Source of the DNA: Escherichia coli
GTDB taxonomy: Bacteria; Pseudomonadota; Gammaproteobacteria; Enterobacterales; Enterobacteriaceae
Reading direction: 5' to 3' (one strand)
Assembly: GCF_017348835.2 (NCBI RefSeq)
Contig: NZ_CP071375.1
Length of the DNA: 64,000 bases
The notes beneath the pieces are model-generated. The model was not told the DNA's origin and searched no databases. It saw only the letters and a program-made list of their open reading frames with translations. Of the stretch, positions 13,526 through 14,480 are shown piece by piece. The translations under genes were made by a program, and so were the position numbers. How positions within the stretch are numbered: the stretch's first letter is position 1; each line of letters starts with the position of its first letter.

Positions 13526-14480
13526 ATGGCTATCGAAATCAAAGTACCGGACATCGGGGCTGATGAAGTTGAAATCACCGACATCCTGGTCAAAGTGGGC
13601 GACAAAGTTGAAGCCGAACAGTCGCTGATCACCGTAGAAGGCGACAAAGCCTCTATGGAAGTTCCGTCTCCGCAGGCGGGTATTGTTAAAGAGATCAAAG
13701 TCTCTGTTGGCGATAAAACCCAGACCGGCGCACTGATTATGATTTTCGATTCCGCCGACGGTGCAGCAGACGCTGCACCTGCTCAGGCAGAAGAGAAGAA
13801 AGAAGCAGCTCCGGCAGCCGCACCCGCGGCTGCCGCGGCAAAAGACGTTAACGTTCCGGATATCGGCAGCGACGAAGTTGAAGTGACCGAAATCCTGGTG
13901 AAAGTTGGCGACAAAGTTGAAGCTGAGCAGTCGCTGATCACCGTAGAAGGCGATAAAGCTTCTATGGAAGTTCCGGCTCCGTTTGCAGGCACCGTTAAAG
14001 AGATCAAAGTGAACGTGGGTGACAAAGTGTCTACCGGCTCGCTGATTATGGTCTTCGAAGTCGCGGGTGAAGCAGGCGCGGCAGCTCCGGCGGCTAAACA
14101 GGAAGCGGCTCCGGCAGCGGCCCCTGCACCAGCAGCTGGCGTGAAAGAAGTTAACGTTCCGGATATCGGCGGTGACGAAGTTGAAGTGACCGAAGTGATG
14201 GTGAAAGTGGGCGACAAAGTTGCCGCTGAACAGTCACTGATTACCGTAGAAGGCGACAAAGCTTCTATGGAAGTTCCGGCTCCGTTTGCAGGCGTCGTGA
14301 AGGAACTGAAAGTCAACGTTGGCGATAAAGTGAAAACTGGTTCGCTGATTATGATCTTCGAAGTTGAAGGCGCAGCGCCTGCTGCAGCTCCTGCGAAACA
14401 GGAAGCGGCAGCGCCGGCTCCGGCAGCAAAAGCTGAAGCCCCGGCAGCAGCTCCGGCTGCAAAAGCGGAAGGCAAATCTG
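13526..14480 (+). repeat. three ~300-bp tandem coding repeats (lipoyl domains plus Ala/Pro-rich linkers) inside aceF
   Basis: Near-identical peptide blocks [44 protein letters not shown] repeated three times. Confidence 0.9.

What the first reader, a model, noticed from the sequence alone, without database searches (positions are those of the whole stretch)
13526..14480. Three near-identical ~300-bp lipoyl-domain repeats in aceF
The DNA and protein repeats are nearly identical, which makes this a recombination-prone region. Deletions that reduce the number of lipoyl domains are tolerated in E. coli, so strain differences in copy number are plausible. It is also a source of misassembly in short-read genomes.
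Basis: partly seen in the sequence, partly recalled or inferred. Interest (0 to 1): 0.2.

Follow-up and report, generated by a model that had tools for sequence, protein, structure and literature searches.

The report
Three lipoyl-domain repeats in aceF
This is the well-known triple lipoyl-domain repeat at the start of the E. coli pyruvate dehydrogenase E2 gene (aceF); the copies are only 75-85% alike in DNA, and about 0.2% of finished E. coli genomes have lost all or part of one copy by recombination between the repeats.

Summary
Window 13526-15418 (+) is aceF, in the pdhR-aceE-aceF-lpd operon. It encodes three tandem lipoyl domains with periods of 309 and 303 bp. The copies are not near-identical: DNA identity is 77%, 75% and 85%, and the longest exact runs are 26, 20 and 36 nt.

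Among 5,423 complete E. coli genomes that carry aceF:
- 5,411 have three domains.
- 8 have clean in-register two-domain alleles. Four join domains 2 and 3 in the conserved core, two have lost domain 2 through a linker crossover, and two join domains 1 and 2.
- 4 isolates of one Taiwanese clone share a 192-bp out-of-register in-frame deletion.
- None has four domains or one domain.

Four-domain alleles (exact 303- or 309-bp tandem duplications) and one-domain alleles appear only in draft and metagenome assemblies. A small-k de Bruijn loop or shortcut through the shared run would give the same structures. Some metagenome contigs join different alleles at the core, so misassembly also occurs.

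The biology is textbook (Guest and Perham). The natural copy-number polymorphism is a small addition. Interest is low.

The parts
13526..15418 (+). aceF CDS: 630-aa dihydrolipoyllysine-residue acetyltransferase (E2p) of the pyruvate dehydrogenase complex
   Evidence: ORF and translation. NCBIfam equivalog NF008814 scores 1100 bits against a cut-off of 722. PDB 7b9k matches 1-630. The protein equals K-12 AceF except for E19D.
13538..13765 (+). Lipoyl domain 1 (outermost); lipoyl-lysine K41 codon at 13646-13648
   Evidence: Pfam Biotin_lipoyl, three stretches. Domain coordinates. DKA lysine codon.
13766..13846 (+). Ala/Pro-rich linker 1
   Evidence: Translation. A +AAA length variant occurs in strain FG92-1. 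It shares short exact runs with linker 2; in K-12 these are 17 nt and 13 nt, and they were used in the linker-crossover deletions.
13847..14074 (+). Lipoyl domain 2; lipoyl-lysine K144 codon at 13955-13957
14075..14149 (+). Ala/Pro-rich linker 2
14150..14377 (+). Lipoyl domain 3 (innermost); lipoyl-lysine K245 codon at 14258-14260
   Evidence: PDB 1qjo and 2k7v match residues 206-284/293. PMC8421416 names K245 as the dihydrolipoyllysine.
14378..14503 (+). Ala/Pro-rich linker 3, with short internal repeats spaced 33 nt apart (14368-14471)
   Evidence: the repeat finder family D2. Length variants -AAPA (T16R) and -AAP (HL15).
13619..13666 (+). Conserved core of domain 1 (gene nt 94-141). It contains a 26-nt exact run shared with domain 2 and is the crossover zone for [1/2] hybrids.
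   Evidence: Exact-run table. The [1/2]-3 alleles of 01_3327 and L020-L029 switch register here.
13934..13990 (+). Conserved core of domain 2 (gene nt 409-465). It contains a 36-nt exact run shared with domain 3 and is the crossover zone for [2/3] and [3/2] hybrids.
   Evidence: Junction mapping in VTB97379v, Rb-50, C4 and C2. Duplications in L004-L007.
14237..14293 (+). Conserved core of domain 3 (gene nt 712-768), the partner of the domain-2 core
14504..14611 (+). Peripheral-subunit (E3) binding domain
   Evidence: Pfam E3_binding at residues 327-362. PDB 4qoy_E and 8oqj.
14720..15412 (+). Catalytic acetyltransferase core domain, including the DHRVIDG active-site motif
   Evidence: Pfam 2-oxoacid_dh at residues 399-629, E = 2.5e-80. 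PDB 4n72. Motif visible in the translation.
10848..13511 (+). aceE (E1p), the gene upstream in the operon
   Evidence: ORF. Pfam PDH_E1_M, Transketolase_N and Transketolase_C_1.
15626..17050 (+). lpdA (E3), the gene downstream in the operon
   Evidence: ORF 15563-17050. Pfam Pyr_redox_2 and Pyr_redox_dim. The start is placed from the annotation of strain PE164, which is 100% identical to the window over 13400-14700.

Best explanation
The feature is the 5' third of E. coli aceF. It encodes three tandem lipoyl domains, each about 76 residues long and each carrying one lipoyl-lysine in a DKA turn. Flexible Ala/Pro-rich linkers join the domains, and the peripheral-subunit-binding domain and the catalytic core follow. 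The domains act as redundant swinging arms that carry acetyl groups between the E1, E2 and E3 active sites (established knowledge; PMC8421416). The triplication is old, because each E. coli domain resembles its Salmonella orthologue more than its own paralogues. At the DNA level the copies have diverged to 75-85% identity, but they keep exact runs of 20-53 nt in the core around the lipoyl-lysine and 13-17 nt in the linkers. These runs support rare unequal recombination or replication slippage (mechanism inferred). The products are in-frame and in register: functional-looking two-domain alleles with a hybrid domain or a hybrid linker, and possibly four-domain and one-domain alleles. One out-of-register deletion arose instead between the two VGDKV-coding half-domain motifs. 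Three domains remain the overwhelming norm (5,411 of 5,423 complete genomes). This fits recurrent, mildly deleterious variants removed by selection (inferred; Dave et al. 1995 reported slower growth with fewer domains). The same short exact runs let small-k assemblers loop through, skip or chimerise the array, so some variants in draft and metagenome assemblies are probably artefacts.
For: Identity of the gene. Repeat anatomy and divergence. Age of the triplication: orthologous domains in E. coli and Salmonella are 92-95% identical in protein, paralogous domains 73-88%. Population survey: a real two-domain query separates 12 complete genomes (at least 90% identity) from 5,411 normal ones (80-90%). 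The 12 resolve as follows. Four are 529-aa 1-[2/3] alleles (VTB97379v, Rb-50, C4, C2). These differ from one another by 12-22 SNPs and have different aceE alleles and aceF-lpd spacer lengths, so the events were probably independent. Two have lost domain 2 through linker crossovers (DSM 103263, 528 aa; FDAARGOS_1283, 530 aa). Two are 527-aa [1/2]-3 alleles (01_3327 and 03_3013). Four clonal Taiwanese isolates (463, 447, 439, 446) share a 192-bp deletion. Two findings argue the variants are real. Related isolates share the same variant. The 01_3327 allele is identical in DNA to an independent draft (L023) and differs by 1 SNP from two more. Segment searches agree with the survey: exactly 2 genomes lack the domain 1-to-2 segment and 8 fail to cover the domain 2-to-3 segment. 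Crossovers fall in the longest exact runs. Queries built from four-domain alleles found no four-domain complete genome.
Against: No reads were examined, so an assembly error in any single 'complete' genome cannot be excluded. Two of the four 529-aa 1-[2/3] genomes (C2 and C4) carry accessions from the same numeric series (CP0101xx), which might point to a pipeline effect. The recombination mechanism (RecA-dependent exchange or slippage) is inferred from junction anatomy only. Selection against two-domain alleles is inferred from their rarity and from literature I could cite only second-hand. The independence of the four 1-[2/3] events rests on SNP backgrounds, which recombination could have shuffled.
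Confidence: 0.9

Rival explanations
1. All departures from three copies are assembly artefacts. Real E. coli always has three lipoyl domains, and the repeats only confuse assemblers.
For: Four-domain alleles are exact 303- or 309-bp duplications whose junction lies in the shared run. A de Bruijn graph cycle traversed twice gives exactly this structure. Four-domain alleles are absent from 5,423 complete genomes. The 527-aa form sits mostly on short contigs: in 504 of 592 index blocks the longest contig is 2-20 kb. K-12-like backgrounds have a 32-nt exact run between domains 1 and 2. The same accession series carry both the 527-aa and the 426-aa variants. Metagenome proteins P0006, P0013, P0015 and P0024 join different alleles or species at the core.
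Against: Twelve finished chromosomes carry deletions. Four isolates of one clone share the identical out-of-register deletion, which no in-register graph shortcut would produce. The linker-crossover deletions use only 13-17 nt of homology, which is shorter than typical assembler k. The 01_3327 allele recurs with 0-1 SNP in independent assemblies.
Confidence: 0.07
2. Lipoyl-domain number is an adaptively tuned trait, so that two-domain alleles are favoured in some niches or lineages rather than being mildly deleterious accidents.
For: One two-domain allele ([1/2]-3) is shared by two complete genomes of about 5.7 Mb and by several drafts with 0-1 SNP, which suggests it persists in a lineage. Two-domain E2p is the norm in some other species: PMC10579247 reports two domains in Delftia.
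Against: Only about 0.15% of complete genomes have two domains. The carriers are scattered over unrelated backgrounds and hosts (chicken, cow, human) with no large clade. Dave et al. 1995, cited in PMC10579247, reported that lowering domain content reduces growth rate and yield.
Confidence: 0.03
3. The high similarity of the core segments is maintained by ongoing gene conversion between the repeats (concerted evolution), not only by purifying selection on the lipoyl-lysine turn.
For: Paralogous sites at gene nt 432, 453 and 462 (and 429) switch between 'different' and 'identical' states among strains. As a result, the longest exact run between domains 2 and 3 varies from 23 to 53 nt.
Against: Orthologous domains are clearly closer than paralogous ones, so there is no wholesale homogenisation. 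About 17 synonymous codon differences persist in each domain pair. The toggling sites could be parallel synonymous mutations under strong codon bias.
Confidence: 0.3

Closest known systems
E. coli K-12 AceF (E2p; WP_000963518.1; PDB 7B9K, 1QJO, 4N72)
   Same: Same length (630 aa), same domain order (three lipoyl domains, binding domain, catalytic core) and same operon. The protein is identical except for E19D.
   Different: There are 34 nucleotide differences across the gene. The window allele matches only strain PE164 exactly. Its exact run between domains 2 and 3 is 36 nt, against 23 nt in K-12.
Engineered one-lip and two-lip E2p constructs with a hybrid lipoyl domain (Guest et al. 1985 J Mol Biol 185:743, cited in PMC8421416; the hybrid domain is described in PMC6270654)
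   Same: The natural 529-aa, 527-aa and 426-aa alleles have the same architecture. One or two repeat units are missing, and a hybrid domain is formed from the N-terminal part of one domain and the C-terminal part of another.
   Different: These alleles sit in genomes and assemblies of isolates and were not built in vitro. Their junctions lie at spontaneous crossover points in exact runs. Their activity was not measured here.
Salmonella and Citrobacter AceF orthologues
   Same: Same three-domain plan with domain-by-domain orthology, 92-95% identity per domain.
   Different: Four-domain forms occur on chromosome-size Salmonella contigs (P0034, 723 aa; P0037, 725 aa), formed by linker or core crossovers. 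No complete E. coli genome showed four domains.
SucB (E2o), a single-lipoyl-domain acyltransferase
   Same: Shares the lipoyl, binding and catalytic domain families (the NCBIfam sucB models match below their cut-offs).
   Different: It has one lipoyl domain and therefore no internal repeat to recombine.

Membership tests
AceF / E2p, long form (NCBIfam NF008814, TIGR01348) | Full-length match above the curated equivalog cut-off | tested here: met
   NF008814 scores 1100.2 bits against a cut-off of 722. TIGR01348 scores 1040.2 bits against 552.1.
AceF / E2p, long form (NCBIfam NF008814, TIGR01348) | Tandem N-terminal lipoyl domains, each with a DKA lipoyl-lysine turn | tested here: met
   Three Biotin_lipoyl stretches. 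GDKAS motifs at K41, K144 and K245.
AceF / E2p, long form (NCBIfam NF008814, TIGR01348) | Peripheral-subunit-binding domain followed by a 2-oxoacid_dh catalytic domain with the DHRxxDG motif | tested here: met
   E3_binding at residues 327-362 and 2-oxoacid_dh at 399-629. '[12 protein letters not shown]' is in the translation.
AceF / E2p, long form (NCBIfam NF008814, TIGR01348) | Operon context pdhR-aceE-aceF-lpdA | tested here: met
   ORFs and Pfam hits for the GntR/FCD regulator, E1p and E3 flank the gene. The annotation of PE164 agrees.
AceF / E2p, long form (NCBIfam NF008814, TIGR01348) | Lipoylation and acetyltransferase activity | not testable with these tools
   Inferred from near-identity to K-12 AceF, which has solved structures.
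Copy-number-variable tandem repeat (recombination-prone coding repeat) | Head-to-tail direct repeats that share exact homology long enough for recombination | tested here: met
   Periods of 309 and 303 nt. Exact runs of 26, 20 and 36 nt in the window and 23-53 nt in other strains. The runs are short, so the substrate is weak.
Copy-number-variable tandem repeat (recombination-prone coding repeat) | Alleles with different unit numbers and in-register recombinant junctions in independent genomes | tested here: met
   Eight complete genomes have two domains, on several SNP backgrounds. The predicted recombinant proteins exist in public assemblies.
Copy-number-variable tandem repeat (recombination-prone coding repeat) | Variation frequent enough to be a useful or typical VNTR-like marker | tested here: not met
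   5,411 of 5,423 complete genomes keep three units, and none has four or one.

The most novel reading that the evidence does not exclude
Natural E. coli lineages stably carry a pyruvate dehydrogenase E2 with two lipoyl domains. One example is the [1/2]-3 allele shared by strains 01_3327 and 03_3013 and by several drafts. A clinical clone in Taiwan carries an E2 with a scrambled, out-of-register domain fusion. If so, lipoyl-domain number is a real, heritable polymorphism within the species whose fitness cost or benefit could be measured in natural backgrounds.
Probability: 0.8. Interest if true: 0.25.

Novelty: already known. Interest (0 to 1): 0.15.

Why it matters
The repeat itself is textbook and matters little. 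There are two practical points:
- Annotation and assembly pipelines should expect aceF length variants. PGAP labels an intact 527-aa allele a pseudogene. Draft and metagenome assemblies contain four-domain, one-domain and chimeric forms that may be artefacts.
- The rare natural two-domain alleles are ready-made material for testing, in wild backgrounds, the old laboratory result that fewer lipoyl domains lower growth performance.

Tried and rejected
- **Coverage statistics on the whole region.** A 1,301-bp query flagged only 2 genomes below 80% coverage. This under-counted the variants, because BLAST pieces extend into the paralogous domain. I replaced it with segment queries and a real two-domain query.
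- **Four-domain queries.** Queries built from draft alleles L005 and L010 returned only two-piece matches spanning 1,301 bp. No complete genome has four domains.
- **Literature searches.** Searches for reports of natural within-species variation or spontaneous aceF lipoyl deletions found nothing relevant in the held library. The classic papers could be cited only through reference lists.
- **The 192-bp deletion as a one-off assembly error.** Rejected, because four related isolates share it.
- **Wholesale concerted evolution.** Rejected, because orthologous domains are closer than paralogous ones.
- **One ancestral two-domain allele behind the four 1-[2/3] genomes.** Judged unlikely, given 12-22 SNPs between them and different flanking alleles.
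- **Not pursued.** I did not identify the 3 complete genomes with no aceF match, or the few matches on records labelled as plasmids.

Full report
**What is there.** Window 13526-15418 (+) is a 630-codon ORF.
- It lies between a transketolase-like E1 gene (10848-13511) and a flavoprotein disulfide reductase gene. A GntR/FCD regulator gene lies upstream. This is the pdhR-aceE-aceF-lpdA operon.
- The product scores 1100 bits on the NCBIfam AceF equivalog, whose cut-off is 722.
- It matches PDB 7b9k over all 630 residues.
- It differs from K-12 AceF by one residue, E19D, and by 34 nucleotides.
- Over 13400-14700 the window is 100% identical only to pig isolate PE164. Most E. coli genomes are 97.8-98.8% identical.

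**Checking the observation.**
- Tandem Repeats Finder reports 2.7 copies of a 303-nt unit with 80% matches at 13547-14364.
- The repeat finder gives three 300-nt copies spaced 309 and 303 nt apart.
- Pfam gives three Biotin_lipoyl stretches, then E3_binding (residues 327-362) and 2-oxoacid_dh (399-629).
- I place the domains at 13538-13765, 13847-14074 and 14150-14377. The lipoyl-lysine codons are at 13646, 13955 and 14258, and Ala/Pro-rich linkers lie between the domains.
- The similarity is far beyond chance: shuffles never exceed 36% identity.
- The copies are not near-identical. DNA identity is 77%, 75% and 85%, and protein identity is 78%, 72% and 87%. About 17 synonymous codon differences separate each pair.
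- The longest exact runs are 26, 20 and 36 nt, in the core that codes for [17 protein letters not shown](APFAG).
- PMC8421416 independently gives 73% identity for the three domains.

**Age of the repeat.** Each E. coli domain is 92-95% identical to its positional counterpart in Salmonella but only 73-88% identical to its own paralogues. The triplication therefore predates the split of the two genera, and the copies are not being wholesale homogenised. A few paralogous sites (gene nt 429, 432, 453, 462) do switch between 'same' and 'different' among strains. The longest exact run between domains 2 and 3 therefore ranges from 23 to 53 nt. Occasional gene conversion is possible but not shown.

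**Copy number in complete genomes.** I searched 5,426 complete E. coli genomes, of which 5,423 hold aceF.
- A query taken from a real two-domain allele separates 12 genomes (at least 90% identity, mostly one piece) from 5,411 normal genomes (80-90%).
- **Class A (four genomes).** VTB97379v, Rb-50, C4 and C2 encode a 529-aa protein with the order domain 1, then a hybrid of domain 2 (5' part) and domain 3 (3' part). The register switches inside the conserved core. The four alleles differ from one another by 12-22 SNPs and have different aceE alleles and aceF-lpd spacer lengths. They probably arose independently.
- **Class B (two genomes).** DSM 103263 (528 aa) and FDAARGOS_1283 (530 aa) have lost domain 2 cleanly through crossovers between linkers 1 and 2. 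Those linkers share exact runs of only 13 and 17 nt in K-12.
- **Class C (two genomes).** 01_3327 encodes a 527-aa protein consisting of a domain 1/2 hybrid followed by domain 3. 03_3013 gave the same search signature, a single 991-bp piece at 91.6% identity, but I did not inspect its sequence. PGAP labels the 01_3327 ORF a pseudogene although it is intact from its ATG.
- **Class D (four genomes).** Isolates 463, 447, 439 and 446 have genomes of nearly identical size and were all collected in Taiwan. They share a 192-bp in-frame but out-of-register deletion. It joins the VNVGDKV motif at the end of domain 2 to the VKVGDKV motif near the start of domain 3. The exact match at the junction is 5 nt (GTGGG), inside an imperfect 21-nt homology.
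- Segment searches agree with this count. Exactly two genomes lack the domain 1-to-2 segment, and eight fail to cover the domain 2-to-3 segment.
- Queries built from four-domain alleles returned only two-piece matches spanning three domains. No complete genome has four domains. None has one domain, because a 1/3 hybrid would also lack the domain 1-to-2 segment, and only the two class C genomes lack it.

**Wider collections.** A search of the 5.8-billion-cluster protein set put 727-738-aa proteins at the top.
- **Clean four-domain forms.** P0002-type proteins (731 aa) have the order 1, 2, [3/2 hybrid], 3. P0001 (733 aa) has the order 1, [2/1 hybrid], 2, 3. In DNA these are exact 303- or 309-bp tandem duplications whose junction lies in the shared run. 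They sit on backgrounds 13-31 SNPs apart.
- **Junctional chimeras.** P0006, P0013, P0015 and P0024 join different alleles or species at the core. All come from metagenome assemblies.
- **Exact-sequence look-ups.** Every recombinant protein I predicted is present:

| Protein | Contigs |
|---|---|
| 529 aa, 1-[2/3] | 182 |
| 527 aa, [1/2]-3 | 454 |
| 530 aa, domain 2 lost | 22 |
| 528 aa, domain 2 lost | 2 |
| 566 aa, 192-bp deletion | 6 |
| 426 aa, one-domain 1/3 hybrid | 38 |
| 426 aa, second one-domain form | 1 |
| 731 aa, four domains | 4 |
| 733 aa, four domains | 2 |
| 630 aa, K-12 form | at least 1,000 (capped) |

**How much of this is real?** Several findings argue that many draft variants are artefacts.
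- Four-domain and one-domain forms are absent from finished genomes.
- A de Bruijn cycle through the shared run, traversed twice or skipped, produces exactly these structures.
- The 527-aa form sits mostly on short contigs. In 504 of 592 index blocks the longest contig is 2-20 kb. K-12-like backgrounds have a 32-nt exact run between domains 1 and 2.
- The same accession series carry both the 527-aa and the 426-aa forms.

Other findings argue against dismissing all variants.
- Twelve finished chromosomes carry deletions.
- The clonal, out-of-register class D deletion is not an in-register graph shortcut.
- Class B uses homology shorter than typical assembler k values.
- The 01_3327 allele recurs with 0-1 SNP in independent drafts.

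I conclude that both real rare deletions and assembly artefacts exist. Only reads or PCR can settle any individual case.

**Mechanism.** The following parts are shown directly:
- the repeat anatomy;
- the junction positions inside exact runs;
- in-frame products that retain intact DKA turns.

The following parts are inferred:
- unequal homologous exchange or replication slippage as the cause;
- purifying selection keeping three domains. This rests on the rarity and scattered distribution of variants, and on Dave et al. 1995 (cited in PMC10579247), who reported that lowering lipoyl-domain content reduces growth rate and yield.

Domain redundancy is established knowledge (Guest et al. 1985 and Allen et al. 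1989, cited in PMC8421416). The laboratory 'hybrid lipoyl domain' E2p described in PMC6270654 has the same architecture as the natural hybrids.

**Verdict.** The repeat is real, at the stated place, and already well known. 'Near-identical' is an overstatement. Novelty: already known. Interest: low.

Noticed in passing
window 13400-14700 (aceF 5' region): The window allele (E19D; 34 nt different from K-12) is 100% identical only to pig isolate PE164. Only 12 of 5,423 complete genomes are at least 99% identical over this stretch, and most are 97.8-98.8%.
   Followed up: partly
window 13640-13948; L012 (NZ_CM185171.1, strain AB_24_S34), aceF at L012:1887-3779: In 31 complete genomes the stretch from the 3' half of domain 1 through linker 1 to the 5' half of domain 2 is only 80-90% identical to the window. 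The changed residues (Q66E, A69K, D78E, D82A, Q87P, D107E, S115G, K130T, E132A) match Citrobacter-like sequence such as P0036. This looks like a mosaic or imported segment, or a conversion tract.
   Followed up: partly
window 13766-13846 and 14378-14503 (linkers 1 and 3); L038, L039, L040: Small in-frame length polymorphisms occur in the Ala/Pro linkers: +AAA in linker 1 (FG92-1), -AAPA (T16R) and -AAP (HL15) in linker 3. Linker 3 also contains short internal repeats spaced 33 nt apart at 14368-14471.
   Followed up: yes
L018 (NZ_CP074961.1, strain 01_3327), aceF at about L018:1626-3209: PGAP annotates this aceF as a pseudogene ('missing N-terminus'). The ORF is intact from its ATG and encodes a clean 527-aa two-domain protein.
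   Followed up: yes
P0034, P0037, P0025, P0036 (protein search hits): Salmonella AceF proteins with four lipoyl domains sit on chromosome-size contigs: P0034 (723 aa, 4.47 Mb) and P0037 (725 aa, serovar Pullorum, 4.68 Mb). A Citrobacter protein (P0036, 731 aa) has a rearranged domain order. Four-domain forms may therefore be real in relatives.
   Followed up: no
P0035 (680 aa), P0038 (668 aa), P0031 (707 aa): Other internal duplications appear in E. coli AceF records: a 50-aa duplication of the E3-binding domain (P0035), a 38-aa partial duplication inside domain 2 (P0038), and a metagenome chimera with two binding domains from different species (P0031).
   Followed up: no
E. coli genome collection (header): Three of 5,426 complete genomes gave no match at all to the aceF 5' region. 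Six matching places lie on records labelled as plasmids. I identified neither group.
   Followed up: no
window 15419-15625 (aceF-lpdA spacer); L004-L019: The aceF-lpdA spacer comes in two lengths, about 207 nt (as in the window) and about 324 nt. The 117-nt difference was not characterised.
   Followed up: no
window 11097-13370 (-), 13783-14475 (-), 14234-15463 (-): Long antisense ORFs (757, 230 and 409 aa) overlap aceE and aceF. They are listed mechanically and I saw no evidence that they are genes.
   Followed up: no
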